DNA from: Minisyncoccota bacterium
Lineage (GTDB): Bacteria > Patescibacteriota > Minisyncoccia > Phycocordibacterales > UBA9973
NCBI GenBank assembly: GCA_041667145.1
Contig: JBAYFP010000002.1
Span: forward strand, 14,436 to 78,435
Reading direction: 5' to 3'
Length of the DNA: 64,000 nt
In this document: one piece after another, positions 10,013 through 51,135 of the stretch
How the letters are laid out: the number at the start of each line of letters is the position of its first letter
How positions within the stretch are numbered: the first letter of the stretch is position 1
The notes under the pieces: generated by a model
Seen by the model: only the letters and a program-made list of their open reading frames with translations
The model's database searches: none
Told to the model about the DNA's origin: nothing
Program-made: the position numbers and the translations under genes

Positions 10013-11248
10013 TTAGTCAAAGTAGTTTTTCAACCTGGCTATTTTTTCGTGTTGACGAAGTTTTTCGTGCACTTTCGCCTCTATTTGACGAATACGTTCA
10101 CGAGTAACGCCAAACTCTTCCCCTACTCTTTCAAGGGTGTGTTGGATGCCATCTACAAGTCCATAACGCATTTCTAAAATTTTACATTCCTTGGGATTCA
10201 ACTCGTTCAAAACTTCACGAATCTGATCAGACAAAATACGTCTTGAAGATTCCTGGTCTGGACGTAATATCTTATCATCAGGAATAAAGTTTTCAAGAGT
10301 TGATTTATCATCATCATCCCCTACTGGTTGCTCTAAAGAAATAGTTTCTTGACTAATATTTTCAATAACATGTATCTTCTCAACAGGGATACCCATTTCT
10401 GTAGCTATCTCTTCTGCTAATGGTTCTCGGCCTAGATCCTGACTTAACTTTCTATATGTCTGCTTATATTTTGAAATGGTTTCCACCATATGCACTGGTA
10501 TACGTATAGTTCTACTTTGATCAGCGAGCGCACGAGTAATGGATTGACGTATCCACCAAGTAGCATAAGTAGAGAATTTATATCCTTTAGTCCAATCAAA
10601 TTTCTCAACTGCTTTAAACAAACCTAAATTCCCTTCTTGAATCAAATCCAAAAGACTTAAGTTCGCACTTCTTCCCACATATTTTTTCGCAATAGAAACA
10701 ACCAAACGTAAATTTGCTCTAGCCAATAAATTCTTTGCTTCCATATCTCCTAATTCAATGCGTTTCGCAAGGTCTTTTTCATCAATAGCATGGATTAAAG
10801 CATATTGTCCTATCTCCTTTAGATACATCTGGATAGAATCATGTATTGTAGATTTATTCAAATCCTTGTCGGTAGCATCATTGTCTAAATTAAGTAAGTT
10901 ACCTCCTTCTAATACATCTATGCCTATAACTGCAAATTTCTCATAAAGCTCATCTAAAAGAAAAATATTGTTCTCAATATCAGGAAAAGTCTTCAATATC
11001 TCGTCATAAGTAATAAATCCTCTTTTGCGTCCTTTTTCTATAAGTTCATTAGAAAGTTTATTAAAACCCTCTGCTTTTTTCTCTGACACTGTCAGTTTTT
11101 TATTGATTTTTATTTTTTCTGATTTATGCAGTTTTTTAACAGTCTTTTTTTTCTGAACTTTTTTCTTAGCTGTTATCTTTTTTACTTTTTTTACCTTAGC
11201 TTTTGCATTTTTTTTATTTATTTTTTTCATTTTTTTATTTTTTTTCAT
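10013..11248 (-). CDS. rpoD: RNA polymerase sigma-70 factor RpoD with a Lys-rich N-terminal extension
   Basis: Regions 1.2-4 are present ([32 protein letters not shown]; C-terminal region 4). The N-terminal ~55 aa are poly-Lys. It sits immediately downstream of dnaG. Confidence 0.9.
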
Positions 11249-11266: not shown

Positions 11267-13009
11267 CTAAGGTTTGCGACTACGACTATTTTTAATTTCT
11301 TCCTTTCTTTTATCTATCTCATTTATTTTCTTTAAAATTTCTATCTCTCCCTTTTTTTCTTTTAAATTTTGAAGCTCCATTGTCTTTTTAAAACGTTCTT
11401 CATTCAAATATTCTTCCTCTATATTCAACAACATTTCATCTACATCTTTTTGTAAATTTTCTCTATTTGAATAAAACTCTTCTGCTTCATAGATTAAATC
11501 TTCTTTTATATTTTCAAAATCTTTTTTTATGTTTCCAAGCTTTTTAAAAATTATTTCTGGATCTATTGTTTTATCTTTTATTCCCTCCTGCCAAAAAGCT
11601 ATACCCATGAGTCTACGTTCTATAGGGTCTTTCCTTACTCTATTTTCAACATTTTCTTTAGCAATTTTTGTTTCTTCTGTTTCAGATTTCAACTCGATTT
11701 CTACCTTTTTTAAATCTTCCAGAAGTGCATTCTCTGGTATACCTGACTTATTGCTAATAAGCGTAATAAAGTGTGATTTTTCTATTGAACTTTCTAAAGA
11801 ACCTAAATATGGCAATACTTTTTCTCTTATTTCTCTTCCAGCTTTTCGTGCATCTTCCTTACAATTGATTAAAACTTTTTCTAAAAGAAATTCTATTATA
11901 TGCTTCGAATTACGTACAGCCCCTCGCCATGCATCTGCCCCACTCTTTGAAATCAAATCAGCTGGATCTATCCCCTCTGGCATAGAAACTACTTTTACAT
12001 CCATACCAAAAGAAAGAGCAATCTTCCCAGCACGCGAAGAGGCATTGAAACCCGCCTTGTCTGCATCAAAAGCAAGAACAATATTTGAAGACAAACGACG
12101 TAATAATCCTAGGTTTGAAACAACATTTTCTTTTGAAACTGTAGAATCTGAAAGAGCAGTACCTGAAGTCGCGACTGTATTTCTAAACCCTGCTTGATGA
12201 GACAAAACTAAATCTATTTGCCCTTCAACTAAAATAGAAAAATTATTTTTCCTTATTGAATCTTTCGCTTTATCTATACCATAAAGCACAGAAGACTTAT
12301 TAAATATTGGAGTTTCTGGACTGTTTAGATATTTAGCTGATTTTCCATCATCTTTAAAAATCCTCCCGGAAAAAGCTATCACCCTCCCACTCGAATCAGA
12401 AATTGGAAACATAATCCTACCTCGAAATCTATCATACATACCCTTGTCTGTCCCGCCTAGACTCGGCGAGGCTGGCTTTTTTGCAAGACCAGCTTTTTCT
12501 ATCTCTACATCATTAAAACCTATCTTTTGAAGATGCGAATATAACAAACGCCAATCATCTTTTATAAATCCAATCCTGAAATCTTTTATCGTCTTATCTT
12601 CTAACCCCCTAGATTTTAGATACTTTAATGCCTCCACATCATCTGCTAAACTTCTCTCAAAAAACTTAGCCGACTCTTCCATAGCTCTATACAACCTTTC
12701 TTTTTCTCCTTCTTTTTCTTTATTGAATGTAGTTAAGGAAACTCCTGCTCTCTCTGCTAAAATTTTTAATGCTCCTTTAAAATCAAGCCCCTCAAATTCT
12801 TCAACAAAAGTAAATATATCTCCCTTAGCTGCACAACCAAAACAATAATAGGTACCACGGTCGACCGACACAAAAAAGGACGGCGTTTTTTCGTTGTGAA
12901 ATGGGCATTTGGCTTTAAAATTTGCACCTGCCCTATCTAACTTTATGTAAGAAGAGAGTACTTCTTCGATTGAAAGTCTCTCCTTAATCTGTTCTACGGG
13001 AGAGTTCAT
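11267..13009 (-). CDS. dnaG: DNA primase DnaG
   Basis: Zinc-binding CPFHNEKTPSFFVSVDRGTYYCFGC, followed by a TOPRIM domain. The stop codon is TAG. Confidence 0.9.
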   Translation of the reverse strand: MNSPVEQIKERLSIEEVLSSYIKLDRAGANFKAKCPFHNEKTPSFFVSVDRGTYYCFGCAAKGDIFTFVEEFEGLDFKGALKILAERAGVSLTTFNKEKEGEKERLYRAMEESAKFFERSLADDVEALKYLKSRGLEDKTIKDFRIGFIKDDWRLLYSHLQKIGFNDVEIEKAGLAKKPASPSLGGTDKGMYDRFRGRIMFPISDSSGRVIAFSGRIFKDDGKSAKYLNSPETPIFNKSSVLYGIDKAKDSIRKNNFSILVEGQIDLVLSHQAGFRNTVATSGTALSDSTVSKENVVSNLGLLRRLSSNIVLAFDADKAGFNASSRAGKIALSFGMDVKVVSMPEGIDPADLISKSGADAWRGAVRNSKHIIEFLLEKVLINCKEDARKAGREIREKVLPYLGSLESSIEKSHFITLISNKSGIPENALLEDLKKVEIELKSETEETKIAKENVENRVRKDPIERRLMGIAFWQEGIKDKTIDPEIIFKKLGNIKKDFENIKEDLIYEAEEFYSNRENLQKDVDEMLLNIEEEYLNEERFKKTMELQNLKEKKGEIEILKKINEIDKRKEEIKNSRSRKP

Positions 13010-13015
13010 ACCTTT

Positions 13016-16000
13016 TTATTCTTCTTCAGGCACTTTTACCCTACTTTTAAATCCAGTTCCTGCTGGAATTAATCGCCCAATAATAACATTTTCTTTTAAT
13101 CCTCTCAACGAATCTATCCCACCCTTAACTGCATTTTCAATAAGGACACGATTTGTATTCTGAAATGATGCCGCAGAAAGCCAACTTTTTGTACGTAGAG
13201 ATACTTCAGTAATACCGAGTACTATTGTTTCAGCTTTTGCTTCTGTCTGATTAATTTTTTCTACTCTATTATTTTCTTCAATAAATGCAGTGTTCTCAAC
13301 TATATCTCCAACAGAGAAATTAGTCTCACCAGCATCTTTTATTTTTCTTCGTGAAAACATTTGACGAATAATTATTTCAGTATGTTTTCTAGAAATAGAA
13401 GCACTCTGAAGTTCATAAACTTTGTTTATTTCTCGAATAATATATTCCTCAACCATTTCTTTAGTTCCAAACTTAAATATCTCAGCGATATCTGCTGATC
13501 CATCAGTAAGAAGTTCACCTTTTTTCACTTTTTGACCAACTTTTACTATTGGTAATCTGCGGAATGGTACAAGATATTCTATTTCGTTTGGCTTACCATC
13601 AATTTTACTATCAGAAAGAATCTTAATTATTTTTTCTCCGCCTTGGCTAGACGAAGCAGGTTTCCCATCTTTATCTTTTATCTCAAAAACCTCTCCATCA
13701 GTTTCAGAAATTATTGCTGGATTTTTAGGGATACGTCTTTCAAAAATTTCTTCAATACGAGGCAACCCCGTAGTAATATCTGTTCCAGCGACACCTCCAG
13801 CATGAAAAGTTCGAAGTGTAAGCTGTGTACCTGGCTCCCCGATAGCTTGTGCGGCAATAATACCTACTGCCTCCCCTAGATCGACAAGATGATTTCGTCC
13901 TAAGTCTAATCCATAACACATCTGACAAAGACCATGGGTAGTGTGACATGTCAAAGGAGAACGAACATAAACCTCTTCGAAACCCATACCTTCAATATTG
14001 TACGCTTCTTCTTTTGTGACTAAAAATCCCTTTTTATAAATAATCTTTCCATCTCTATCTTTAAGATCAGCAGCGAGAACTCTTCCACGAATATTTTTTG
14101 AAAGTGGGATTTCAATACCAGAAATATTTTCTTTCCTTACCATTTTCCCATCTTTTGTGCCACAATCCTCCTCGGTAACAACAACATCCTGTGCAACGTC
14201 GACTAATCTACGAGTCAAATATCCCGCTTTAGCAGTATTGAGTGCAGTATCTGAAGCACCTTTACGAGCACCATGAGTAGTAACGAAATATTCGATAGGA
14301 GAAAGCCCCTCATGGTAAGAAGGTATAATAGGAAATTCCAACGTCTTACCTTGGTTATTTTGGATAAGTCCTTTCATCCCCATCATTTGAATTAAAGAAG
14401 TCACTGTACCTCTTGCTCCTGAAGTAACCAGGTCATAAGTAGGGCCGTTTTTATCAAGTGCCTTAAGAAGAACTTTTTCTAATTCTTTTTTAGCATGTGT
14501 CCAGATTTCAATAATCTTTTGATACCTTTCTTCTTCCGAGAGAAGACCTTCATTCCATTCTAATATTACTTTCTCTTCCAATTTTCTACCTTCTGATATA
14601 ATTTTTTCTTTTTCAATTGGAACTTTTATATTATCAAAACCCCAGGTCGTACCAGAAACTGTTGAATATTGAAAACCAAAACTTTTTATTTTATCCAAGA
14701 TAGGTGGAGTCTCGTCTACACCATAGTGCATAATAAGTTCATCTACAAGAGAAGATATTCTCTTTTGAGTCATCTCATCACTTATGTATGAAAAATCACT
14801 TGGCAAGATACTGTTAAAAAGAAGTTTCCCAACAGAGGTATCAAAAAAACCTCCATCAAATTTTCTATATTTATGTTTATCTGTCGCTAAAACTTTTATT
14901 TTTGCACGAAGAGATACGATACCATATTCGTAAGCAGTTATGGCGACATTCGGACTCGAAAAATATTTACCTTCTCCTATTTCACCGTCAACAAGTTTCG
15001 TCATCCAATAAGATCCAAGCACAATGTCTTTACTGGGATGCACGATAGGATCACCGTTTTGAGGTTTCAATAAATTTTTATTTGCAGCCATCAATTCTTT
15101 TGCTTCAGCTTGAGCCTCTTCAAGAAGAGGAACATAAACAGCCATTTGGTCTCCATCGAAGTCAGCATTAAAAGCCTGACAAACTAATGGATGTACTTGA
15201 ATAGCATTTCCCTCAATAAGAATAGGATTGAAAGCTTGAATACCTAAACGGTGAAGAGTAGGTGCGCGGTTCAAAAGAACATATTTACCTTGAATCACTT
15301 CTTCAAGCATTGCCCAAACTTCTGGGGTACGTTCTTCTATGAGTTTATTTGCTCCACGAATATTAAATGCTAGCTCTGCTTGTAAAATTTTAGAAATAAC
15401 AAATGGTCTAAAAAGTTCGAGAGCCATGTGTTTTGGCAAACCACATTGATTGAGTTTAAGTTCTGGACCAACCACAATAACACTACGGCCCGAGTAGTCA
15501 ACACGTTTACCAAGTAAATTTTGACGGAACAACCCTTGCTTTGATTTTAAGTTGTCAGATAAAGATTTAAGAGGACGCTTTTGGGATTGACTCATTGCTG
15601 CACTATCATTTTGTTTTGCAATAGAGTTATCAATAAGAGCATCCACTGCCTCCTGAATAATTCTTTTTTCATTTCGCAAAATTACATCTGGAGCATTTAT
15701 CTCTTTTAACTTTTTTAAACGATTATTTCTGTTTATAACTCGACGATAAAGATCATTCAAATCACTCGTTGCATGACGACCTCCATCTAGGGCTACCATT
15801 GGGCGCAAAACTGGAGGAATAACTGGAATAACTGTCAAAAACATCCACTAAGGCCTTATTCCTGCATAAGTCATAGCTCTGATAAGTGAAAGTCTTTTTT
15901 GTAATTTCTCTTTTTCAATCACACTTGCTTTTTCAATCATTTTCTCAGTGTGAATTTTTAATTTATTTAAATCAAGATTCTTAAAAATAGAATATATAGC

Positions 16001-16648
16001 CTCAGCTCCTATATTGGCCTCAAAACAAGTACCGTATTTCAAAGAATAATGATGAAAAGAAATTTCATTTAATACTTTTCCTTCATAGATTTCTAAGATT
16101 TCTTTTTTAGTACTAGAAAATAAATTCTTTAATTTTTCACGAGTCTCATCATCAGCTGAATTCTTCAATTTAGCTTTATATTCTTTTTCCAAATTCTGAA
16201 CTATTATCTCTTTTTCATTTTCATGAACCTTTGTGATTATGTATCCAGCAAAATATATTACCTTTTCAAGGTCAGATACAGAAATATTAAGAAGAATACT
16301 CATTCTAGATGGCACTCCACGTAAAAACCAAATATGAGCGACGGGTGTAGAGAGCTCAATGTGCCCCATTCTTTCTCGTCTCACGATAGAACGTGTCACT
16401 TCTACTCCACATTTTTCACAGATAATATCTTTATAACGAATACGACGATATTTTCCACAATAACATTCATAATCTTTTTCTGGCCCGAATATTTTCTCAT
16501 CAAAAAGGCCACCACGTTCAGATCTACCAGTACGGTAATTTATCGTTTCGGGTTTAGTCACTTCTCCATAAGACCAATCTTTTATTTGCTCGGGAGATGC
16601 GAGCTTGAGTGAAATATAATCAAAATCAGTTTTATTTAATGTTTTCAT
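13016..16648 (-). CDS. rpoC: RNA polymerase beta' subunit, interrupted by a single in-frame TAG (plus 15848-15850); predicted as two ORFs (16648-15848 and 15844-13016)
   Basis: Minus-strand translation across the junction reads ...[25 protein letters not shown]. coli has ...[21 protein letters not shown] at this point, so the stop replaces a conserved Glu (GAG to TAG) and both halves stay in the same frame. The total is ~1210 aa. Confidence 0.85.
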
Positions 16649-20271: not shown

Positions 20272-20419
20272 AAAAATGCCCTTTATATTATATTTAAAAA
20301 ATTAATTTTAATTGCGAGAACTATTACAACCTATATTGTATATAATACAATTGACTCTGTCAACTTTTTTCTGTCCTTTTATATCAACAAAATAAAGTCC
20401 ATCTGGGTTTGTTCACCTC

Positions 20420-20435
20420 TAGGCCTTGCCTAGCT
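20420..20435. repeat. REP-like GC-rich hairpin, left copy flanking the transposase (taggccttgcctagct)
   Basis: Exact reverse complement of the right copy at 21123-21138. Its internal stem is ctagg/cctag. It contains the transposase stop codon. Confidence 0.8.
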
Positions 20436-21096
20436 AAATTTCATTCTTATAGTTTAACCATTCAAAAATCTCACTTAAAAAATCTCTCCCTGTTGGGAAA
20501 TATTTCGGAAATGATTTTGTATTTAATATTTTATTTTGTATTCTTTGTATCCCTATATAATCTAAATAACTCGAGTAAAGATAATCATATAAATATCTTT
20601 CAGATTCTTTTCTGTTTTTAATCCCCTTTTCCTTCCAATCCTTTTGTATAAGTTTCATTGGATTCAAATGAATATAAGAAAACATATATTTAAGATATTT
20701 ATCTTTGTCTATATGCTGTGATTTAAATTTGCCTTCAAATAAGCTACCCGTTCTTTTATATTTTTTATTAAAATACATCGAATAAGAAGTACTCAATTTC
20801 TGCATAAAATTACTTATATTATTGTCTCCCGATTGTGTTATTAATAAATGAAAGTGATTAGACATTAAACAATACGCACCAATATAAACAATCGGTTCTT
20901 CTTGTTCAATCTCATATAAAGTTTGACCCTTATTTAAATTACTAACTTTCAAACTACCCGTTTGGTTACAAGCATATAAAAGACTTATAAAACGCAAATA
21001 GTCCTCTTCGTCAAGAAAGATTTTCTGCTTACTATTTCCTCTATTGTAAATGTGATAATACTCACCTGAGACTAAACTTACTTTTCGTATAGACAT
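20434..21096 (-). mobile_element. IS200-like / REP-associated tyrosine transposase (RAYT, COG1943-type HUH Y1 transposase)
   Basis: YHIYNRGNSKQKIF..DYLRF..LL, the AYCLMSNHFHLL HUH motif, and LSTSYSMYFNKKYKRTGSLFEGKFKSQHIDKDKYLKYMFSYIHLNP. The gene is flanked by perfectly inverted 16-nt GC-rich repeats. Confidence 0.8.
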
Positions 21097-21122: not shown

Positions 21123-21140
21123 AGCTAGGCAAGGCCTAGA
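21123..21140. repeat. REP-like GC-rich hairpin, right copy (agctaggcaaggcctaga)
   Basis: Inverted copy of 20420-20435. It overlaps the 3' end of the patatin-like gene. Confidence 0.8.
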
Positions 21141-22040: not shown

Positions 22041-22760
22041 TTATCTACTAAATAATCTTTCAGCTAGGCAAGGTCTAGATGAATTTTTCCATTCCTCTAT
22101 CTTTTTATGATTCCCAGACAGTAATACTTTTGGAACTTTGTAATTTTTGTTTTTATATTTTAAAATTTCTGGACGAGTATAAACTTCGCTTGAAGATATT
22201 CTTTCTTCTTCTCGTGAATCGAAATTACCAAGTACACCTTCTATTTGACGAGAAATGCAGTCTACTAAAATCATGGCTGGGATTTCTCCACCAGTCAAAA
22301 CATAATCTCCTATTGATAATTTTTTGGTCTTTAATATTTTATCAACTCTTGCATCTATCCCCTCATATCTTCCACAAATCAAAATAATATCAGTATATTT
22401 TTTAGAAATTAATTTGGCATAAGTAGTTGTGAATTTTTCTGCACTAGGAATGAAATTAATTATTAAAATTTTTTTATTCCCCTCTTGAGGGGTGGCTCGC
22501 TTACGAGACGGGGTGGATATTTTTTTTACTACTGTTCTCACTGTTTCAAGCAGTGGCTCGGCTCTCATGACCATCCCCGGACCTCCACCATAGGGCTTAT
22601 CATCTACTGGTTTATAGTTAGTTTTATTTCCCTTAATAAAATCTCTGGGATTATAAAACTTCACAGAAATAAGCTTGTTTTTTATTGCCCGACCAATAAT
22701 AGACTCACTCAAATATGAATCAAATATGTCTGGGAAAATTGTAATTATATGAAAACGCAT
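22041..22760 (-). CDS. trmD: tRNA (guanine37-N1)-methyltransferase TrmD
   Basis: MRFHIITIFPDIF... and the SPOUT-knot region ILICGRYEGIDARV. The ORF track starts at 22781 with TTG; I take the ATG at 22758-22760. It contains a GC-rich insertion at 22474-22520. Confidence 0.85.
   Translation of the reverse strand: MRFHIITIFPDIFDSYLSESIIGRAIKNKLISVKFYNPRDFIKGNKTNYKPVDDKPYGGGPGMVMRAEPLLETVRTVVKKISTPSRKRATPQEGNKKILIINFIPSAEKFTTTYAKLISKKYTDIILICGRYEGIDARVDKILKTKKLSIGDYVLTGGEIPAMILVDCISRQIEGVLGNFDSREEERISSSEVYTRPEILKYKNKNYKVPKVLLSGNHKKIEEWKNSSRPCLAERLFSR
22062..22079. repeat. REP-like hairpin, third copy (agctaggcaaggtctaga, 1 mismatch)
   Basis: Same orientation as the copy at 21123. It lies inside the 3' end of the trmD ORF (encoding ...RPCLAE...). 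Confidence 0.75.
22474..22520. repeat. GC-rich hairpin element inside trmD (ttattcccctcttgaggggtg-N15-ggggtggatat); a paralogous copy lies in pheT
   Basis: Stem cccctc/gagggg plus the inner hairpin ctcg-ctta-cgag. It encodes STPSRKRATPQEGNKK in frame. It shares 22+11 identical nt with 37859-37901. Confidence 0.75.
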
Positions 22761-23662: not shown

Positions 23663-25609
23663 ATGAAGAAAAAAATAACTAACAAAGCAGAGGGCATAAT
23701 ATCCATCTCCTCAAAAGGTACGGGGTATGTTAAAGTCCTTTGTTTTGAAGAAGACCCAGAGATAGACTTTAAACACTTAAATACCGCACTTCATGGCGAT
23801 ACAGTCGAGATAATACTCCATCCAAAAGGTAAAAAACGACTTACCGGAGAAGTATTGAAAGTAATCTCACGAATAAAAGTCGGTTTTTCGGGGGTATTAG
23901 AAAAAGAAAATGGTTTTTATTTCTTAAAGCCAGATGACACAAAAATGTATACCGATATTTTAATACCAGAAAAATTACTAAATAGCGCAAAAGTTGGTCA
24001 AAAAGTTTATGTAAAAATAACATCATGGGAAGATTCAAAGAAAGCACCAGAGGGTGAAGTAATAAAAATTTTAGGACAACCTGGTGATAATAATACAGAA
24101 ATGCATGCTATAGCTATTGAGAAAGGCTTTGATAGCGAACTACCTAAAAAAGTGGAAGAAGAGGCTAAAAAAATAAAAAATCTAGGAATAAAAAACGAAG
24201 ATTTCTTGGGACGACGAGATTTTAGGAAAACTCTTACATTTACTATTGACCCTGAAGATGCAAAAGATTTTGATGATGCTATATCGTTTAGGATTCTTCC
24301 CCCTCTCCTTAATGAGGAGAGGGGGCTAGGGGGTGAGGTGTATGAAATAGGCATCCACATAGCCGACGTCACTCACTATGTAAAAGTAGGAAGTGAAATC
24401 GATCATGAAGCAAAGAATAGAGGAACTTCTGTATATTTAGTGGACAGAACGATACCCATGCTTCCAGAAACACTTTCTAATGATTTATGTTCCCTGCTCC
24501 CTCATAAAGATAGACTCACAATGAGTGCTGTATTTATCATAGACAAGAATGCACATGTAAAAAAAGAATGGCATGGACGCACAGTAATACATTCACAAAA
24601 AAGATTTACTTATGAAGAGGCAGAAGAAACTATAAAAAAAATCGACGCACCACTGCATAAAGAACTTTCTATTTTAAATAATTTAGCAAAAAAATTAACA
24701 AAAGAAAGATTTGCCAATGGTGCTATCTCTCTCGAACAAGAAGAAGTGAAGTTCGTCTTGGATAAAAATGGAGTACCAATAAAAGTAATAAAAAAGGTAC
24801 GTGGTGATTCAAATAAATTAATTGAAGAATTTATGCTTCTCGCAAATAAAAAAGTTGCAGAGACAATCTCAAAAGGCACTAAAAAGGAAGGTGGTGTATT
24901 TGTATATAGAATACACGATAACCCTAGTAAAGAGAAAATGACCGACCTTGCATTCTTTTTGAGAAGTCTAGGACATAAAATATCATTAGTAGACGGAGTA
25001 ATACCAACCAATGAAATAAATGCCCTTTTAAAAAGTTTAGAAGGTAAAAGTGAAGAAAATACAGTGAATAGAGCAGTAGTACGTTCTATGGCAAAAGCCA
25101 TTTATTCTACAAAAAATATCGGACATTATGGACTTGCTTTTCCATATTACGCTCATTTTACTTCCCCCATCAGGCGTTATCCTGACATAGTAGTTCACAG
25201 ACTTTTGAACGATTATTTAAAGGGTATAAAAGTAGGAAAGGAAAAATTGAATATTTACGAAGAAATCTCTTTAAAAGCATCAGAGAGAGAGAAATATGCT
25301 TCCGATGCCGAAAGAGCATCTATAAAATATAAACAAGTTGAATACATGTCTTCTCGTATTGGAAAAACATTCAAAGGAATCATAAGTGGAATAACAGAGT
25401 GGGGTATATATGTGGAAGAAATAGAGACAAAATGTGAAGGCCTCGTACGAGTGAGAGATATGGAAGATGATTTTTATATCTATAATGAAAAGAAGTTAGA
25501 ATTACTTGGACAGAAAAAGAAAAAGAGATATAGGTTAGGAGATAACGTAAAAATAAAAGTAAAAAGTGTTGATTTAAAAAGAAAAACAATTGATTACACA
25601 TTGGTATGA
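23663..25609 (+). CDS. rnr: ribonuclease R / RNase II-family exoribonuclease
   Basis: An RNB catalytic domain (DPEDAKDFDDAIS...HIADVTHYV) and a C-terminal S1 domain. I prefer the ATG at 23663 (the ORF track starts at 23630). It contains a GC-rich hairpin insertion at 24299-24340. Confidence 0.85.
   Translation: MKKKITNKAEGIISISSKGTGYVKVLCFEEDPEIDFKHLNTALHGDTVEIILHPKGKKRLTGEVLKVISRIKVGFSGVLEKENGFYFLKPDDTKMYTDILIPEKLLNSAKVGQKVYVKITSWEDSKKAPEGEVIKILGQPGDNNTEMHAIAIEKGFDSELPKKVEEEAKKIKNLGIKNEDFLGRRDFRKTLTFTIDPEDAKDFDDAISFRILPPLLNEERGLGGEVYEIGIHIADVTHYVKVGSEIDHEAKNRGTSVYLVDRTIPMLPETLSNDLCSLLPHKDRLTMSAVFIIDKNAHVKKEWHGRTVIHSQKRFTYEEAEETIKKIDAPLHKELSILNNLAKKLTKERFANGAISLEQEEVKFVLDKNGVPIKVIKKVRGDSNKLIEEFMLLANKKVAETISKGTKKEGGVFVYRIHDNPSKEKMTDLAFFLRSLGHKISLVDGVIPTNEINALLKSLEGKSEENTVNRAVVRSMAKAIYSTKNIGHYGLAFPYYAHFTSPIRRYPDIVVHRLLNDYLKGIKVGKEKLNIYEEISLKASEREKYASDAERASIKYKQVEYMSSRIGKTFKGIISGITEWGIYVEEIETKCEGLVRVRDMEDDFYIYNEKKLELLGQKKKKRYRLGDNVKIKVKSVDLKRKTIDYTLV
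24299..24340. repeat. GC-rich hairpin element inside rnr (cccctctcc-ttaatga-ggagagggg + gctagggggtgagg)
   Basis: A 9-bp perfect stem. It encodes the extra loop LPPLLNEERGLGGE between the DDA and HIADV motifs, where orthologs have ~10 fewer residues. Confidence 0.7.
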
Positions 25610-28303: not shown

Positions 28304-28720
28304 TTAAAATTTTTCTATATAGGATTTTGCTAGCTTAAATGTTTTAAATTTATCCCCCATCTTAATTTCTTTTAAATAATCCAAAAAATCCCTCGGCAAT
28401 GGGGATGGCCCAACCCAGACACTTTTTTGAATCATTATATAATCAAACTTTATTAATTGTCGTCTAAACCAGTCACGTTCTTTTTTCATTGAATGTGGAA
28501 TATCATACATCACCATCAAATTTTTAGAAGAATCTTTTTTAAAAGGTGAAGAAAAAGTAATATGATAAAAAGTCCTTTTTCTGTTTTCTTTTTTTACACG
28601 ACTTTTTCTTCCTTGTGAAAAAATAGGAATCCCAAAAGAATTTACTTCCACTCCTTTATAAAATAATTTCTTTTTGGGATTCATATACAAACTATACCAC
28701 CCCATCCCCATATACGCCAT
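28304..28720 (-). CDS. hypothetical protein with a Cas2/VapD-like C-terminal motif (LMVMYDIP...RRQLIKFDYIMIQKSVWVG)
   Basis: The pattern (hydrophobic)-YDI ... R..L...(G/D)...Q.SVW resembles the Cas2/VapD ferredoxin-like fold. There is no CRISPR array nearby. The start is uncertain because the first codons lie inside a perfect 28-nt palindrome. Confidence 0.35.
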   Translation of the reverse strand: MAYMGMGWYSLYMNPKKKLFYKGVEVNSFGIPIFSQGRKSRVKKENRKRTFYHITFSSPFKKDSSKNLMVMYDIPHSMKKERDWFRRQLIKFDYIMIQKSVWVGPSPLPRDFLDYLKEIKMGDKFKTFKLAKSYIEKF

Positions 28721-28763: not shown

Positions 28764-31043
28764 CTATTTCGCAATTGCGACTGCGTCGTCGAGTTTTACG
28801 GATAGAAGTTTAGAAGCACCGTCATTACCTATCGTGACACCATACAAAATGCCCGCTCGAGACATTGTTTCTCTATTGTGAGTAACGACAATAAGTTGAG
28901 AATGATGGGATAACTTTTCCAACATATCCCCATATTTACGAGAATTCGCTTCGTCGAGTGCAGCATCCGTCTCATCTAAAACCAAAAATGGAGGTGGGTT
29001 TACTTGCGACATTGCAAAAAGAAGAGCAATAGATGTAAGGGACCTTTCTCCCCCTGAAAGTGCATTAAGTTCTTTTACCTTTTTATGTGGTAGAGAAACA
29101 TTAATATCGATACCTTGTTCAAAGACTATCTCTGATTCAGTAGAATCATCCCGAGCATCTTCGAGGGATTCATCTGCTTTTTTCTTTTTATTCTCAACAA
29201 CTACAGAAAGATGTGCTTCCCCGCCTCCAAACATTAATGAAAAGAAATTATTAAATTCAACATTTATTTTTTTAACACCTTCTTTAAATTCAACATCGAT
29301 CTTCTCTTTTAAATCTGCCATAAGCGTACGAAGTGACTCTATACTTTTTGCTAAATCTTCCATTTCTTTAGCAAGAAAATTATCCCTTTGTGTTACCTCT
29401 TCGAATTCTTTTATGACTTCAGACCCTCCACCCGATCCAATGTCTTCTAATTTTATTTTAATACGTTCTATTTTTCTTCTTAATTCTTCCTGTAAATTCT
29501 TATCAATTTGTTCATTCACTTCAAAATTCCTATAAGAAAATATATCACTACCAATCAAAGCTCCACCTTCTTTTATTTCATTTTCAAAGGCCTCTGTCTC
29601 TTTTGACAAACTTTCTTCTTTTATTGAAATAAGCTCTAAAGCAGAAGATAGTTCTTGATGCTTTACTCTGAAATTAAATTTTTCCTTTTCTTTTATATGT
29701 AGAGCTTCATTTTCTTGTGTGATTTCATTTTTTAATTCCGTTATTTTTTCTATAATCTTACTTTCTTCATTTTCTACATTCTGCATCTCAGCCATAATTT
29801 CTTGTTGGTTTTTCTTCAACATCAAATTTTCAGAAGATATAGTTTCTGAATGGTCTGGCTGGGAGAGGGACCCGGGGAACCGAGGACCTGAAGAAACTAT
29901 GCCTTCTGAAAATTCTTTTAAAATATCTTTAATCCTCAAAAGGATATATTTTATTTCTGCTATGTTTTCTTCAGAAATAGCCAAATCTATTTCTGAATTA
30001 ATTTCATTAAATACTTCTTTTATTTCTCCAGGATTTTTTACCACGATTTCAACTTCGGATGTTTTTTGACTTCTCCTTTCCTCCATTTCTATCATTCCCT
30101 CGATTCTTCCCAATTTACGTCCTATTTCATTTTTGACTGAACGAATTTCGCTAACTTTTTTTTCAAAGTTTTTTAATTCCTTTTCTTTTTCACTTTCTTC
30201 TTTTCTATCTGTTTCCTCAACATCAAAAATCTTTGTTTTGATACTTTCTAATTCTACTAAAATCTTATTTCTTTCTACTTGCAGATTAGATTTTTCTTTT
30301 TCCAAATACACACTTTCTTTCTTTAGATACTCTTTATAAATGGATAAAAGTGTTACCTGCATTTCTTTGGCTTTTTCAAATTTATCTACTTGTTTTTTAA
30401 GAAAATTGAGATGTGGAGCGTTCTCTCGACGCAAAAGTGACACTTCTTTCATATTGTTAGTGGTCCTCTCCAATTTTCGTTGAGATTCTTTTATTTTATA
30501 TTGATATATTTTAAGTCCAAGAGCATCTTCTACCATTTCTCTTTTATCTTTAGAATTTGCATTTAAAATCCTGTCTGCTTCACCCTGAGAAATGATATGA
30601 TGACCCGAAGAACCTATATTTACCGAAGCTAAAAGATTATTAATGTCTTTTAGTCTTACTTCAGCGCCATTTAAGATATACTTATTCAACCCATCAGAAT
30701 AGACCTCACGAGAAATCGAAATAACATCATAATTTAAATTAATATTTTCTCCCGTTTCATTTGAAAGTTTAAAAACTTTATCAGAGTTGTCAAAATAAAT
30801 CGTAACTGTCGCACGAGAGCTTTTAGGTAAATTCTTAGATCCTTTAAAAATCAAATCAGAACCAGAAGACCCTCGCATCGATTTGATAGACTGTTCACCC
30901 AACACGAAACGAAGTGCTTCTACTACGTTTGATTTACCAGACCCATTAGGTCCTACGATAGAAACAATAGGATTTTGAAATTCTAAAACAGTTTTTTTAG
31001 AAAATGATTTAAAGCCATTTATCTCAAGATTCTTCAATCGCAT
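28764..31043 (-). CDS. smc: SMC-family chromosome segregation ATPase (short form)
   Basis: N-terminal Walker A VGPNGSGKSNVVEALRFVLGEQS, a long coiled coil, and the C-terminal signature LSGGERSLTSIALLFA...LVLDETDAALD. It is 759 aa. It contains a GC-rich insertion at 29855-29893. Confidence 0.8.
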   Translation of the reverse strand: MRLKNLEINGFKSFSKKTVLEFQNPIVSIVGPNGSGKSNVVEALRFVLGEQSIKSMRGSSGSDLIFKGSKNLPKSSRATVTIYFDNSDKVFKLSNETGENINLNYDVISISREVYSDGLNKYILNGAEVRLKDINNLLASVNIGSSGHHIISQGEADRILNANSKDKREMVEDALGLKIYQYKIKESQRKLERTTNNMKEVSLLRRENAPHLNFLKKQVDKFEKAKEMQVTLLSIYKEYLKKESVYLEKEKSNLQVERNKILVELESIKTKIFDVEETDRKEESEKEKELKNFEKKVSEIRSVKNEIGRKLGRIEGMIEMEERRSQKTSEVEIVVKNPGEIKEVFNEINSEIDLAISEENIAEIKYILLRIKDILKEFSEGIVSSGPRFPGSLSQPDHSETISSENLMLKKNQQEIMAEMQNVENEESKIIEKITELKNEITQENEALHIKEKEKFNFRVKHQELSSALELISIKEESLSKETEAFENEIKEGGALIGSDIFSYRNFEVNEQIDKNLQEELRRKIERIKIKLEDIGSGGGSEVIKEFEEVTQRDNFLAKEMEDLAKSIESLRTLMADLKEKIDVEFKEGVKKINVEFNNFFSLMFGGGEAHLSVVVENKKKKADESLEDARDDSTESEIVFEQGIDINVSLPHKKVKELNALSGGERSLTSIALLFAMSQVNPPPFLVLDETDAALDEANSRKYGDMLEKLSHHSQLIVVTHNRETMSRAGILYGVTIGNDGASKLLSVKLDDAVAIAK
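29855..29893. repeat. GC-rich element inside smc; shares the 13-mer ccgaggacctgaa with a pheT element (39171-39204)
   Basis: ctggctgggagagggacccggggaaccgaggacctgaag encodes SSGPRFPGSLSQPD. The shared 13-mer is read as SGPR in smc but as QVLG in pheT. Confidence 0.65.
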
Positions 31044-32979: not shown

Positions 32980-33114
32980 AATGGGTTTATGTTAGCATGA
33001 AAATTAAGCAAAGGCAATTTTTCCTCGGGTCCTCGAGGCAGAGCCCCAGACCAGCTCGAAAAAACTCCTTTGTTTAATTTTCATCAAATAAAAAAATATG
33101 ATACTATAAGATAT

Positions 33115-37569: not shown

Positions 37570-39441
37570 CTATCTTACTTGCCAATCATTTTTCTCCTTG
37601 ATTTTATTGGTTATTTTAGTCATAATTTCGTTTATTTCATCGTCAGTAAGAGTCCTTTCATAAGATTGGAAAACTAGCCTAAAAGCATACGAAGTCTTAC
37701 TATCTTTAGTGAAAGAATCAAAAAGATATGGCTCCTTAATTAAAAGTTCTGTACCATTTTCTATAAGTATCTTCTTCAATTCTTTCACATTCCCTCCTTC
37801 CGGCATCCAGACAGCAATATCACGAGAAATAAAAGGATAAATTGACCAAGGAAGAAATTTATTCCCCTCTTGAGGGGTGACGCCTGCGCCGGGGTGGATA
37901 TATTTTCCACCTCCCCCTAAAGGGTACTCCTCAAGAAGAGAATCTTTACAAAATTCGTTGAGTGTCATTTCTTTTATTTCTTTTTTATCTCCATAAGCGA
38001 CATGCATTTCTTCCCCACTTTTCTTGAACACAGTACCTATTTCAAAAATCTTTATTTCTTTCATTTCAAGAAGTGGTAAATTGATCTGATTTAATTTCAA
38101 GCTTTCTTTTAATCCATCAGTCAGATTTGTTCTTAAAAACTTTTTATCCGACGCAGAAGCCAATACTTCCACTTCCCCTTTATCTTTAAACGAGTAAGTC
38201 ATAACTTCACTATACCCGCTATTTAAAAGCTTACTACGTGTAAAAATAATTTCTGAAAATATTTCATTCATTTTTGTTTTAGTTTTTATTTCAGGCATTT
38301 TTTCTTTAAGCTTGTCATACCCTAAAATTCGAATCACTTCTTCAGTCAAATCATGAGGACCTGTTATATCAATTCTAAAAAAAGGAACTTCAATCTCAAA
38401 TTCGTCTCCTTTCTTTAAATATTTAAAATTTAATTTTTTCCATACATCTTCTATCTCTTTTTGAGAAAAATCAGAACCCAAATGTTTATTTATATAATTT
38501 ACAGAAACAAAAACCTTTTTTTGTTCAACTTTTTTTGGATAAATATCTATGATAGATTCTGCTTCCCCTCCAGCTAATTCAAAAACCAAATCAGTAATGG
38601 CATTCATAGCCATGGTGCAAAGTTCTGGGGTAATTTCATTTTCATATCTCTTCACAGCATCAGTTAAAATATTTATTTTCTTGGAAGTTTTTCTTGTAGA
38701 AGTTTTATCAAAATTTGCCACTTCTATAACTAGATTTTTTGTCTTATCGTCAACCTCAGCCTTTATTCCTCCTTTTATCCCCGCAATGGCTAAAGGAGTT
38801 TTTTCATCCGCAATTACCAAAATCGATTCATCTAAAATGATCTCTTTTTTATCAAGGGTAGTGAGTTTTTCTCCAACTTTTCCATTTCTTACAATTATTT
38901 TTGCACTTTCTAATTTATCTAAATCAAAACAATGAATCGGTTGACCCAAATCAAACATTACAAAATTGGCAGCATCTACAATATTATTTATTGATTTTTG
39001 TCCTATCGCTTCTAATTTTTCCCTTAGCCAATCTGGGCTTTTACTAATTTTTATATTTCTAACAATTCGGCCCATATAACGAAGACACTTATCTGACTGA
39101 ATTTCAATTTTTAAATCTGGGCCAAAATGGCTTTTTGAACGGTCTGGTTGAGCCTGTTCTTTTAAAGAATCCTGCACAGGCGACCCGAGGACCTGAAAAA
39201 AGCCATTTGGCGAGGATATCTTTAAATTAAAAATAGCAGAAATTTCTTTAGCTATCCCGAAATGAGAAAGGCAATCGTGTGCTCTATCTGGAAGAATTTT
39301 AATATCAAAAATAACGTCATCCCCAATCTTTACAATTTCTTCTACTTCAAAAGAGTGAAAAATAATACCCTCAGATAATTTCTCTGGTTCAGGTAATTTT
39401 TCTTTGAAATAATTTTGTAACCAATTATAACTAACTTTCAT
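37570..39441 (-). CDS. pheT: phenylalanyl-tRNA synthetase beta subunit (short form)
   Basis: B3/B4 and B5 domain similarity, adjacent to pheS. It is 623 aa. It contains GC-rich insertions at 37859-37901 and 39171-39204. Confidence 0.8.
   Translation of the reverse strand: MKVSYNWLQNYFKEKLPEPEKLSEGIIFHSFEVEEIVKIGDDVIFDIKILPDRAHDCLSHFGIAKEISAIFNLKISSPNGFFQVLGSPVQDSLKEQAQPDRSKSHFGPDLKIEIQSDKCLRYMGRIVRNIKISKSPDWLREKLEAIGQKSINNIVDAANFVMFDLGQPIHCFDLDKLESAKIIVRNGKVGEKLTTLDKKEIILDESILVIADEKTPLAIAGIKGGIKAEVDDKTKNLVIEVANFDKTSTRKTSKKINILTDAVKRYENEITPELCTMAMNAITDLVFELAGGEAESIIDIYPKKVEQKKVFVSVNYINKHLGSDFSQKEIEDVWKKLNFKYLKKGDEFEIEVPFFRIDITGPHDLTEEVIRILGYDKLKEKMPEIKTKTKMNEIFSEIIFTRSKLLNSGYSEVMTYSFKDKGEVEVLASASDKKFLRTNLTDGLKESLKLNQINLPLLEMKEIKIFEIGTVFKKSGEEMHVAYGDKKEIKEMTLNEFCKDSLLEEYPLGGGGKYIHPGAGVTPQEGNKFLPWSIYPFISRDIAVWMPEGGNVKELKKILIENGTELLIKEPYLFDSFTKDSKTSYAFRLVFQSYERTLTDDEINEIMTKITNKIKEKNDWQVR
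37859..37901. repeat. GC-rich hairpin element inside pheT (tttattcccctcttgaggggtg-N11-ggggtggatat)
   Basis: Same flanks as the trmD copy with a different-length core. It encodes YIHPGAGVTPQEGNK; part of it is read in a different frame than in trmD. Confidence 0.75.
39171..39204. repeat. GC-rich element inside pheT sharing ccgaggacctgaa with the smc element
   Basis: cctgcacaggcgacccgaggacctgaaaaaagcc; an island of ~65% GC inside an AT-rich gene. Confidence 0.6.
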
Positions 39442-44526: not shown

Positions 44527-47290
<2,764 letters not shown>

Positions 47291-50910: not shown

Positions 50911-51135
50911 AATTTTTCGTTTCGTTTATAACGAAACAACTAATAAATATTACCTAATAATTTTTACCGCTCTTTGGCGGAAATTTCGACTATTTTTTAA
51001 TACATATATTATAACTTTTACAACTATAAAAAGACAACAAGGTTATCCACATTCTAAAATACAACCCCCTTTGTCCCCCTTATCAGGGGGAATTTTTTCC
51101 TCCCCTGACAAGGGGAGGTCAGAAGGGGTTTTTCT

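What the first reader, a model, noticed from the sequence alone, without database searches (positions are those of the whole stretch)
24299..24340. A hairpin element inside RNase R lengthens the loop between the DDA and HIADV catalytic motifs
The perfect 9-bp stem cccctctcc/ggagagggg with a 7-nt loop, followed by gctagggggtgagg, encodes LPPLLNEERGLGGE. RNase R orthologs have a ~10-residue shorter linker here. This is the same element class as in ligA, trmD and pheT (a stem built from cccctc/gagggg-type arms).
Basis: partly seen in the sequence, partly recalled or inferred. Interest (0 to 1): 0.55.

Follow-up and report, generated by a model that had tools for sequence, protein, structure and literature searches.

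The report
Triplex-type repeat translated inside RNase R
A 40-base GC-rich repeat of the kind known from E. coli spacers as BoxC or the "intrastrand triplex motif" sits in frame inside the RNase R gene of a tiny-genome (CPR) bacterium, adds ten amino acids to a surface loop, and has relatives inside many other housekeeping genes.

Summary
A perfect 10-bp GC hairpin (24299-24325) plus CTA plus GGGGGTGAGG lies in frame in RNase R of a Candidatus Nomurabacteria genome (34% GC). It lengthens the DDA-HIADV linker from the near-universal 14 residues to 24.

The segment is therefore a three-arm "intrastrand triplex motif" (BoxC/PIT/TMECO class; Holder 2015). The same hairpin-plus-mirror-tail occurs across many phyla.

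In these CPR genomes the repeat is dispersed and mostly intragenic. The window has 9 copies against 0 in shuffles, in trmD, pheT, ligA and one spacer. A ~96-nt inverted doublet occurs in the same frame in ligA, pheT, RNase R, and in five significant peptide matches (UvrB by source name; PurD, MnmA and TsaD by Pfam; one RNase R fragment). The RNase R copy is the left half and the trmD copy is the right half.

Orthologous RNase R sites are empty, doublet, singlet, nested or hairpin-deleted.

The insert sits at a β-hairpin tip (low pLDDT) and is better conserved than the protein, which suggests nucleic-acid-level constraint. How it spreads is unknown. A nearby RAYT-like transposase has different cognate hairpins.

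Verdict: a new variant of known kinds (BoxC/PIT repeats; in-frame intragenic REP/RPE-like elements).

The parts
23663..25609 (+). RNase R gene (648 aa from ATG 23663; the ORF opens at TTG 23630)
   Evidence: Pfam RNB, CSD2, OB_RNB and S1. 100% identical to P0001, 'ribonuclease R, Candidatus Paceibacterota'. AF2 model has TMq 0.85 to RNase R 8cdu_C and 0.84 to 5xgu.
24290..24340 (+). Segment that differs from the ancestral 7-codon loop: codons R I L P P L L N E E R G L G G E V in place of K E I x x x E
   Evidence: Comparison with empty sites L081, L004, L001 and L002, and with the hairpin-deleted L084.
24299..24308 (+). Pyrimidine arm CCCCCTCTCC
   Evidence: Pairs with 24316-24325.
24309..24315 (+). 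Loop 1, TTAATGA. This is the variable part among orthologs (TTAATAA in L082) and the site of the 69-nt nested insertion in L083.
24316..24325 (+). Purine arm GGAGAGGGGG
24326..24328 (+). Loop 2, CTA (TTA in L082 and L083, as in E. coli TMECO type A)
24329..24338 (+). Third arm GGGGGTGAGG. It is the mirror of the purine arm (G.G, A.A and T.A triads, 10/10; 12/12 when extended to 24340).
   Evidence: The same tail follows 106 of 141 such hairpins from many phyla.
22479..22515 (+). Related element in trmD, antisense to the gene: CCCCTC TT GAGGGG [17-nt loop with its own mini-hairpin] GGGGTG. This is the right half of the doublet and encodes STPSRKRATPQEGN.
   Evidence: Polymorphic among orthologs: absent in L081 and L082.
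37864..37940 (.). Inverted doublet in pheT (two motifs, 37864-37896 + and 37908-37940 -). Encodes SLLEEYPLGGGGKYIHPGAGVTPQEGNK.
46191..46276 (.). Inverted doublet in the ligA adenylation domain (46191-46229 + and 46242-46276 -). Encodes [32 protein letters not shown].
   Evidence: Collinear with the RNase R doublet of L206. The Pfam ligase adenylation domain is split into 2 stretches. The peptide recurs in other housekeeping proteins: UvrB fragment P0121 (source name only), and PurD, MnmA and TsaD by Pfam.
51063..51130 (.). Intergenic doublet with tails outward. About the same sequence as the 69-nt element nested in the RNase R hairpin loop of L083.

Best explanation
Window 24299-24340 is one copy of a dispersed GC-rich repeat of the BoxC / PIT / 'triplex motif' class. 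It has a pyrimidine arm, a loop, a complementary purine arm, a 3-nt loop, and a third arm that mirrors the purine arm. As single-stranded DNA such a sequence can fold into a hairpin with the third arm laid in by reverse-Hoogsteen G.G, A.A and T.A triads.

In this Nomurabacteria lineage the repeat family lives mostly inside genes. The copy in RNase R lies at the tip of the β-hairpin that joins the Asp-rich motif (DFDDA) to HIADV. It is read through in its only stop-free frame, so C-runs give Pro/Leu and G-runs give Gly/Glu/Arg. It adds a net 10 residues of disordered loop. The enzyme tolerates the insert rather than needing it.

Shown here: the anatomy, the in-frame translation frame, the polymorphism of the site, the dispersal of the family, the mirror covariation, the placement at a hairpin tip, and the higher conservation of the insert compared with the protein.

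Inferred: (a) The element entered as a ~96-nt inverted doublet. It then lost its right half, and in one lineage also the hairpin, by slippage between G-runs. (b) Only insertions that are multiples of three, stop-free and at permissive surface turns survive. (c) The arms are held by a constraint on the nucleic acid (the fold needed for copying or persistence, or gene conversion among copies), not on the peptide. (d) Spread uses a single-strand, hairpin-dependent process, either transposition in trans or recombination. No enzyme has been identified for this.
For: Anatomy and significance. The finder gives 9 triplex-type hits in the window and 0 in each of 20 block shuffles.

Same hairpin with the same mirror tail in Chloroflexi, Cyanobacteria, Proteobacteria, Planctomycetes, Bacteroidota and others: 106 of 141 hairpins, against 80 of 24000 random positions. 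The full three-block pattern also occurs in at least 120 IMG/VR stretches.

Published description of the class: PMC4666352.

Mirror covariation of the purine and third arms:
- GGAGAGGGGG / GGGGGTGAGG (window, L082)
- GGAGGGGG / GGGGGTGG (L205, L207, ligA)
- GGAGAGGG / GGGAGTGG (L206)
- GGGGAGG / GGAGGGG (L083 nested)
.

Site polymorphism: 14-aa empty; 24-aa singlet; 26-27-aa intermediates; 42-aa doublet; 47-aa nested; 14-aa hairpin-deleted footprint RILGGEV.

Dispersal: trmD, pheT, ligA and a spacer in the window; dus in L146 in the same frame; gyrB in L083. The doublet peptide recurs at 70-76% identity over 30-31 residues in five significant hits: PurD, MnmA and TsaD (Pfam), a UvrB fragment (source name only) and an RNase R fragment, plus one 52-aa ORF (86, 87, 93-95).

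Density: 0.92 per 10 kb in Nomurabacteria-type loci against 0.03 per 10 kb in distant RNase R loci (75).

Structure: strands 205-212 and 226-234 flank the insert; pLDDT is below 50 at residues 218-223; the fold is otherwise RNase R (65, 82).

Conservation: insert 91% aa identity, rest of the protein 78%, ancestral 7-aa loop 42%. Changes fall mainly on hairpin-loop codons (77, 24).
Against: Triplex formation was not tested here. Even for the E. coli element it was seen only on single-stranded oligonucleotides, not in duplex DNA or in vivo (PMC4666352).

No target-site duplication, terminal inverted repeats or dedicated enzyme were found, so 'mobile' rests on distribution alone.

The doublet-to-singlet-to-footprint order is inferred from a handful of alleles. 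The scatter of the singlet type among empty sites comes from an unsupported NJ ordering.

High conservation of the insert could reflect recent spread by recombination rather than constraint.

The window element fails the strict E. coli TMECO regular expression because its G-runs are 2+5 instead of 3+3.
Confidence: 0.8

Rival explanations
1. REP/REPIN-type element mobilised in trans by the RAYT-like Y1 (HUH) transposase encoded 3 kb upstream (20434-21096, minus strand). The doublet would be the transposition unit and singlets would be remnants.
For: The ORF hits Pfam Y1_Tnp (E = 1.4e-9; 38.6 bits against a cutoff of 23). Its best NCBIfam hit is 'REP-associated tyrosine transposase'. It has HUH (NHFHLL) and YIHLNP motifs. 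Homologous genes sit at other places in the same neighbourhood in L205 and L207. The inverted doublets resemble REPINs. Intragenic REP dimers encoding 20-30 aa, often in replication and repair genes, are documented elsewhere (PMC3733652).
Against: The hairpins flanking this gene are a different sequence: CTAGGCCTTGCCTAG at 20419-33 and 21125-39, with a third copy in the trmD 3' end. The L207 homolog has yet another hairpin. No triplex-type motif adjoins any Y1_Tnp gene. No Y1_Tnp homolog lies near the motif in 120 loci from other phyla. The NCBIfam score of 47 is below the cutoff of 80. The E. coli elements were not associated with mobile-element genes.
Confidence: 0.2
2. An RNA-level element: a stable hairpin inside the mRNA that slows ribosomes or blocks 3'-5' decay. 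In RNase R's own message it could give feedback control.
For: The RNA fold is -26 kcal/mol. Hairpin potential is kept in both orientations within genes.
Against: The RNA z-score is only -2.3, and 7 of 200 shuffles fold as well. An RNA hairpin does not explain conservation and mirror covariation of the third arm. Purine-motif triplexes are stated not to form in RNA (PMC4666352). The same element sits in at least 7 unrelated genes and in spacers, so nothing is specific to RNase R. E. coli copies showed no promoter or terminator activity.
Confidence: 0.1
3. The G-runs (GG, GGGGG, GGGGG, GG) form a G-quadruplex or a quadruplex/hairpin switch rather than a triplex. The mirror symmetry would be a by-product.
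For: A preprint in the literature hit list, by its title, proposes a G-quadruplex-hairpin-duplex switch conserved in E. coli (10.1101/032615; not read here, so whether it concerns this element is not established). All copies have at least 3 G-runs.
Against: Positions of A and T in the third arm track the A positions of the purine arm in mirror register. This holds even when the runs are asymmetric: GGGGAGG/GGAGGGG and GGAGAGGG/GGGAGTGG. A quadruplex does not require that. CD/NMR of the E. coli element indicated a triplex (abstract of PMC4666352).
Confidence: 0.1
4. An ordinary lineage-specific loop extension selected at the protein level. The hairpin would be a coincidence of Pro/Gly codons.
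For: The site is a permissive β-turn that also holds unrelated inserts, such as ISGNEPTDTKAMAGM and CVIRPPRPSGTPPSQGETDL.
Against: There is a perfect 10-bp palindrome plus a mirror arm in a 34% GC genome. The same DNA occurs in other genes, in spacers and in other phyla. The allele lacking only the hairpin (L084) and the nested allele (L083) are DNA-level events. The model gives the loop low confidence and no structure.
Confidence: 0.04

Closest known systems
BoxC / PIT (potential intrastrand triplex) element / TMECO of E. coli and other bacteria (Hoyne et al. 2000, cited from own knowledge; Holder et al. 2015, PMC4666352)
   Same: Three consecutive blocks: C-rich arm, 3-7 nt loop, G-rich arm, 3-nt loop (TTA or CTA), second G-rich arm with a GTGAG core. 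Class II purine motif. Multi-copy and dispersed. Often in inverted pairs. Frequently deleted between relatives. Loops less conserved than arms.
   Different: E. coli copies are always intergenic. Here about 21 of 24 lie inside genes and are translated. The G-runs are asymmetric (2+5), so the strict TMECO pattern is not matched. The host is an AT-rich CPR bacterium. One subtype (trmD, pheT, right half of the doublet) has a 13-17-nt second loop with its own mini-hairpin, outside the loop range used to define the published class.
Rickettsia palindromic elements (RPE; Ogata et al. 2000, as summarised in PMC10969869) and intragenic GTAG/CGTC REPs (Di Nocera et al. 2013, PMC3733652)
   Same: Small palindromic repeats inserted in frame in many unrelated housekeeping genes, including uvrB and other replication and repair genes. 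Dimers encode 20-30 aa. Presumed to lie in loops without destroying function.
   Different: No sequence relationship was established. RPEs are about 100-150 bp. REPs carry GTAG or CGTC tags and two arms, not three. Those elements are from Proteobacteria, Verrucomicrobia and others, not CPR.
REP/REPIN-RAYT systems
   Same: Hairpin repeats occurring as inverted doublets. A RAYT-like Y1 transposase gene is present in the same genome neighbourhood.
   Different: The RAYT-like gene's own flanking hairpins are a different sequence, and no link to the triplex-type repeat was found.
GC clusters and double-hairpin elements of fungal mitochondrial genomes (from own knowledge, not checked here)
   Same: GC-rich palindromic mini-elements invading AT-rich genomes, sometimes in frame within protein genes or nested in one another.
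   Different: Organellar rather than bacterial. No mirror third arm is known. This is a resemblance recalled from memory only.

Membership tests
Intrastrand triplex motif, class II purine type (ITxF definition, PMC4666352) | Pyrimidine arm, then a complementary purine arm, then a third arm able to form G.G, A.A or T.A triads in antiparallel (mirror) register. Stem 6-15 nt with at most 1 mismatch. | tested here: met
   10/10 Watson-Crick pairs and 10/10 triads. 12/12 triads with one G.T when extended.
Intrastrand triplex motif, class II purine type (ITxF definition, PMC4666352) | Loops of 1-6 nt | tested here: inconclusive
   Loop 2 is 3 nt, which meets the criterion. Loop 1 is 7 nt for the 10-bp stem, or 3-5 nt if the stem is extended. 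The trmD and pheT subtype has loop 2 of 13-17 nt, which is outside the range.
Intrastrand triplex motif, class II purine type (ITxF definition, PMC4666352) | The single strand actually folds into a triplex (CD/NMR) | not testable with these tools
   Nearest-neighbour folding models handle hairpins only.
E. coli TMECO / BoxC consensus | Pattern CCCTCNCCC N3-6 GGGNGAGGG N3 GGGNGAGGG | tested here: not met
   The window arms are CCCCCTCTCC / GGAGAGGGGG / GGGGGTGAGG. The core GAGAG/GTGAG and the 3-nt loop 2 are shared, but the G-run lengths differ.
E. coli TMECO / BoxC consensus | Intergenic location | tested here: not met
   The element is inside the RNB domain of RNase R. Most family copies here are intragenic.
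E. coli TMECO / BoxC consensus | Multi-copy, dispersed, partly in inverted pairs | tested here: met
   9 hits in 64 kb. There are pairs in pheT, ligA and a spacer.
In-frame intragenic palindromic repeats (RPE / intragenic REP type) | The same repeat inserted in frame in several unrelated genes, leaving the ORFs intact | tested here: met
   rnr, trmD, pheT and ligA in the window; dus and gyrB in related loci; further peptide matches in PurD, MnmA and TsaD (Pfam) and a UvrB fragment (source name only).
In-frame intragenic palindromic repeats (RPE / intragenic REP type) | Sequence membership in a described RPE or GTAG/CGTC REP family | not tested
   No RPE or REP consensus library was available. 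No GTAG or CGTC tag is evident at the element ends.
REP-RAYT system | RAYT gene flanked by the cognate repeat | tested here: not met
   The Y1_Tnp ORF 20434-21096 is flanked by CTAGGCCTTGCCTAG hairpins, not by the triplex-type repeat.
RNase R / RNB exoribonuclease (the host gene) | CSD-CSD-RNB-S1 architecture, conserved motifs, RNase R fold | tested here: met
   Pfam. Invariant DFDDA and HIADV. Foldseek TMq 0.84-0.85 to RNase R structures.

The most novel reading that the evidence does not exclude
The three-arm repeats are an active, self-propagating element of CPR bacteria that has become 'translatable'. Its arms are built from C-runs and G-runs that read as Pro/Leu and Gly/Glu in one open frame, so it can colonise the coding sequence that fills these tiny genomes. 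Its triplex-capable single-strand fold would be the substrate for copying, possibly by the RAYT-like Y1 transposases. The filled, empty, doublet, singlet, nested and footprint alleles at one RNase R codon would then be the first natural series from which the unknown mobilisation mechanism of BoxC/PIT elements could be worked out.
Probability: 0.25. Interest if true: 0.75.

Novelty: new variant of a known kind. Interest (0 to 1): 0.55.

Why it matters
BoxC/PIT/triplex-motif repeats have been known in E. coli since the 1990s and are abundant in many bacteria. Their origin, way of spreading and function remain unknown, and in E. coli they are strictly intergenic.

Here the same kind of element is found inside essential genes of a CPR bacterium. 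It is translated, and many alternative alleles occur at one orthologous codon. This matters in three ways:

1. It extends the 'selfish DNA inside protein genes' phenomenon (Rickettsia RPEs, intragenic REPs) to the Candidate Phyla Radiation and to a three-arm repeat class.
2. It offers empty and filled site pairs that could reveal the insertion and deletion mechanism.
3. It warns annotators and structural modellers that many odd Pro/Gly-rich loops in CPR proteins are repeat-encoded, not adaptive.

Tried and rejected
1. Rfam (gathering threshold) and tRNA scans of the window found only two tRNAs. No known RNA family covers the element.

2. The genome-collection scan with the bare stem pattern was too unspecific to map the element within Nomurabacteria. 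It did, however, reveal the pan-bacterial hairpin-plus-tail motif.

3. The search for related loci in metagenomes returned mostly distant RNase R loci. These were useful only as the 14-aa baseline.

4. The link to the RAYT-like gene was tested and not supported. The flanking hairpins differ, and no Y1_Tnp lies near the motif elsewhere.

5. Target-site duplication: comparison of filled and empty sites in rnr, trmD and the nested L083 insertion gave no clean duplication or boundary.

6. Searching the 5.8-billion-protein index with a concatenated doublet peptide gave only 9 candidates and 1 hit, a limit of the word index. The exhaustive representative search gave 7 hits, 6 of them convincing.

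7. The literature searches run here (PMC open-access papers and bioRxiv only) found no report of in-frame palindromic or triplex-type elements in CPR, Patescibacteria or Parcubacteria.

8. The non-hairpin insert type at the same site (ISGNEPTDTKAMAGM, L005) showed no arm structure by eye and was set aside.
Full report
**Observation.**
The window is AT-rich (34% GC). From its RNase R protein, which is 100% identical to a 'Candidatus Paceibacterota' entry and 74-84% identical to Candidatus Nomurabacteria proteins, it comes from a CPR bacterium.

At 24299-24340 the plus strand reads CCCCCTCTCC TTAATGA GGAGAGGGGG CTA GGGGGTGAGG TG. The 25-nt hairpin is unique, with none expected by chance. It is the only perfect GC-rich stem of 9 bp or more in 64 kb. 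As DNA it folds at -13.3 kcal/mol, z = -3.7.

It lies in frame in ORF 23663-25609(+), which has the CSD2-OB-RNB-S1 architecture of RNase R. It encodes LPPLLNEERGLGGEV.

**Linker length.**
Between DFDDA[IL] and HIADV this protein has 24 residues. Seventy-nine of 80 RNase R loci from very diverse bacteria have 14, of the form SFxxLxNGxYEIGI. The three solved RNB structures whose alignments were printed (Dis3L2 chains) show a 10-residue gap exactly opposite PPLLNEERGL.

Among the 120 closest orthologs, 53 have 14 residues. The rest have 20-47 residues, of several unrelated sequence types.

An AlphaFold model built on 67 orthologs has mean pLDDT 76.6. It places strands at 205-212 and 226-234 with the insert between them, and pLDDT is below 50 at residues 218-223. 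The model superposes on RNase R structures with TMq 0.84-0.85. The insert therefore extends the tip of a β-hairpin and leaves the fold intact.

**DNA-level polymorphism.**
Orthologous DNA was compared at this site:
- L081 has an AT-rich empty site (AAAGAAATAGAAAATGGCGAG).
- L082 has the same element as the window, differing only in the two loops (TTAATAA, TTA).
- L084 lacks exactly the 30 nt of hairpin plus loop 2 but keeps ...ATTCTT|GGGGGTGAGGTG (protein RILGGEV).
- L083 carries a further 69-nt element nested in the hairpin loop.
- L205, L207 and L208 carry variant singlets.
- L206 carries a ~96-nt doublet (42-aa linker).

These are insertion and deletion events on DNA, not gradual loop evolution.

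**What the element is.**
The hits came from Chloroflexi, Cyanobacteria, Beta- and Gammaproteobacteria, Planctomycetes, Bacteroidota, Acidobacteria and others.

Unexpectedly, 106 of 141 hairpins carried the same tail, GGGG[TA]G[TA]GG, within 7 nt. Only 80 of 24000 random positions in the same loci did. One example is Rivularia: CCCCTCTCCTTAATAAGGAGAGGGGatGGGGGTGAGGTT.

A literature search on the sequence strings led to Holder et al. 2015 (PMC4666352). That paper describes the BoxC / 'potential intrastrand triplex' / TMECO element, 5'-CCCTCNCCC N3-6 GGGNGAGGG N3 GGGNGAGGG. It is a class II purine-motif intrastrand triplex. The paper reports 3610 copies in 262 proteobacterial genomes and abundant G/C-rich triplex motifs in cyanobacteria. 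In E. coli the element is always intergenic, is not linked to known mobile elements, has no promoter or terminator activity, forms a triplex as single-stranded DNA in vitro, and is associated with local deletions.

The window element has this architecture. Its third arm (GGGGGTGAGG) read backwards is GGAGTGGGGG. Against the purine arm GGAGAGGGGG this gives ten allowed triads (G.G, A.A, T.A), or twelve if both arms are extended.

Because the G-runs here are asymmetric (2+5), mirror symmetry can be told apart from direct repetition, and the relation is mirror. Across copies the two arms change together:
- GGAGGGGG / GGGGGTGG (L205, L207, ligA)
- GGAGAGGG / GGGAGTGG (L206)
- GGGGAGG / GGAGGGG (L083 nested element)
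.

The strict E. coli regular expression is not matched. I therefore file the element under the structural class, not under the E. coli family.

**Family within these genomes.**
I wrote a simple finder requiring a pyrimidine arm, a purine arm of at least 6 nt, and a mirror third arm. It gives 9 hits in the window and 0 in each of 20 block shuffles. The hits are:
- trmD, 22479-22515
- RNase R
- an inverted pair in pheT, 37864-37940
- an inverted pair in ligA, 46191-46276
- an inverted pair in the spacer at 51063-51130
- one weak hit

In 261 kb of Nomurabacteria-type loci the density is 0.92 per 10 kb. In 951 kb around distant RNase R genes it is 0.03 per 10 kb. About 21 of 24 copies lie inside long ORFs, including gyrB (L083) and a dus-like gene (L146). 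In the dus-like gene the same hairpin is read in the same frame, as TSPPTPLLDKERGAKGEV.

The ligA insert ([32 protein letters not shown]) is collinear, in DNA and in peptide, with the 42-aa RNase R variant of other genomes ([32 protein letters not shown]). The window's RNase R copy aligns to the left half, the trmD copy to the right half, and pheT carries both halves.

An exhaustive HMMER search of 1.84 billion representative proteins with the 33-aa ligA insert gave 7 hits at E up to 0.001. Six of them match at 70-76% identity over 30-31 residues. These six are:
- a PurD protein (Pfam)
- an MnmA protein (Pfam)
- a TsaD protein (Pfam)
- a protein fragment named excinuclease ABC subunit B by its source, with no Pfam hit
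- another RNase R fragment, at the same site
- a 52-aa ORF

The 69-nt element nested in L083's hairpin is about the same sequence as the window's intergenic doublet at 51063-51130.

This is therefore a dispersed repeat family.

**Constraint.**
Among 12 orthologs that share the singlet, the 17 insert-region residues are 91% identical while the rest of the protein is 78% identical. Among 52 empty-site orthologs the 7-residue loop is only 42% identical.

Between the window and L082 the 40-nt element differs at 2 positions, both in loops. The flanking 33-nt stretches differ at 7 and 3 positions.

A disordered loop would not be expected to be conserved like this. The arms are being held at the nucleic-acid level, or the element spread recently by recombination.

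Only one frame of this orientation is free of stop codons; the other two contain TAA and TAG (direct reading). This explains why independent genes show the same peptide.

**How it likely works (inference).**
The element most probably entered as an inverted doublet and then decayed by deletion. The intermediate alleles support this. Linkers of 26-27 aa, such as [13 protein letters not shown]|SGEE, look like doublets with the right half removed. L084 looks like a singlet with the hairpin removed.

In an NJ ordering the singlet type is scattered among empty sites. That hints at repeated gain and loss or allele exchange, but the tree has no support values.

Survival requires a length that is a multiple of three, the open frame, and a permissive surface turn. 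The RNase R β-turn is such a spot, since it also hosts unrelated inserts.

**Mechanism of spread: unresolved.**
A RAYT-like Y1 transposase gene lies 3 kb away, at 20434-21096. It hits Pfam Y1_Tnp at 1.4e-9. Its NCBIfam hit to REP-associated tyrosine transposase scores 47 bits, below the cutoff of 80.

It is flanked by inverted CTAGGCCTTGCCTAG hairpins, with a third copy inside the trmD 3' end. Homologs in L205 and L207 have their own hairpins. None of these hairpins is the triplex type. No Y1_Tnp homolog lies near the motif in 120 loci from other phyla. I therefore keep RAYT mobilisation as a rival at about 0.2.

**Comparison with the known.**
In structure the element matches BoxC/PIT/TMECO. 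In behaviour it matches Rickettsia RPEs and the intragenic GTAG/CGTC REPs of Di Nocera et al. Those occur in frame, often as dimers encoding 20-30 aa, and often in replication and repair genes (PMC10969869 and PMC3733652).

What appears new:
- a three-arm triplex-type repeat living mainly inside coding sequence
- its presence in CPR bacteria
- the rich allelic series at one codon

I found no report of this in the searchable literature.

**Verdict.**
The element is a new variant of known kinds. Interest is moderate (0.55), mainly because it could make the long-unexplained BoxC/PIT elements tractable.

Noticed in passing
window 20434-21096 (-), hairpins 20419-20433 and 21125-21139, third copy 22064-22078: A RAYT-like Y1 (HUH) transposase gene flanked by inverted CTAGGCCTTGCCTAG hairpins; one flank is preceded by CGTC. 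A solo copy of the hairpin lies inside the 3' end of trmD and gives it a longer C-terminus (..SSRPCLAERLFSR). In L205 the whole transposase unit sits at the trmD 3' end, with about 60 nt of trmD duplicated on both sides. L207 has a divergent homolog with a different hairpin, next to RNase R.
   Followed up: partly
window 15848-15850 (minus strand), between ORFs 15848-16648 and 13016-15844: rpoC is interrupted by an in-frame TAG inside a conserved-looking stretch of the protein (…[22 protein letters not shown]…). From memory of RpoC sequences, a Glu is expected at that position; this was not checked against orthologs here. TAG is used as a normal stop in 10 of 47 ORFs here. A point error or mutation, or a genuinely split rpoC, is therefore more likely than recoding. 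In L081, rpoB is similarly split.
   Followed up: partly
window 29848-29891 in SMC (28764-31043, -); also 33022-33058 (intergenic) and 39171-39195: This is a different GC-rich insert family (…GGTCTGGCTGGGAGAGGGACCCGGGGAACCGAGGACC…). In SMC it encodes SSGPRFPGSLSQPDHSE and is flanked by a ~26-nt AT-rich inverted repeat. It is present in the window and L081 but absent from the SMC genes of L206 and L207 (L083 and L208 are gapped over a much longer stretch).
   Followed up: partly
RNase R linker site in orthologs (P0002, P0006 and others; L005:10664-10714; P0091; P0078; P0089): The same β-turn holds other, apparently unrelated GC-rich inserts (ISGNEPTDTKAMAGM, CVIRPPRPSGTPPSQGETDL, ILPNPLPLPRGSAQGARGSGEEL and others). 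The site is a general insertion hot spot.
   Followed up: partly
L082:6003-6030, L005:122-149 and 10539-10567, L083:9538-9561; L083:10091-10125, 11992-12037 and 14440-14474: Two further GC-rich hairpin repeat families occur in related genomes: CCGCCAGAGGCGGATCCGCCTTTGGCGG, and GTCCCGACGCC…GGGGTCGGGATCCCGAC. Several copies appear to lie inside genes (by coordinates: trmD in L082; RNase R and SMC in L083).
   Followed up: no
L209-L328 (IMG/VR viral contigs): The full three-block triplex pattern occurs in at least 120 viral-contig stretches. Some are dense: 5 copies in 7.3 kb in L221, and 4 copies in 3.3 kb in L225.
   Followed up: no
P0123 (MnmA) residues ~141-171 and ~311-322: One MnmA protein carries both a doublet insert ([31 protein letters not shown]) and a second singlet-like stretch (RPPLTGEGWGEV).
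   Followed up: no
L081:18103-19501; L206:12532-14395: A reverse transcriptase (RVT_1) lies next to a bAvd-like gene in L081, which looks like a diversity-generating retroelement. The gyrB of L206 contains an intein-splicing domain.
   Followed up: no
window 28304-28720 (-); 12446-12477 (dnaG); 43128-43164 (UvrD/PD-(D/E)XK helicase-nuclease); 56046-56075: A small ORF has a Cas2-like / PaaX_M domain. Three more GC-rich islands lie inside genes and do not fit the triplex pattern; they were not examined.
   Followed up: no
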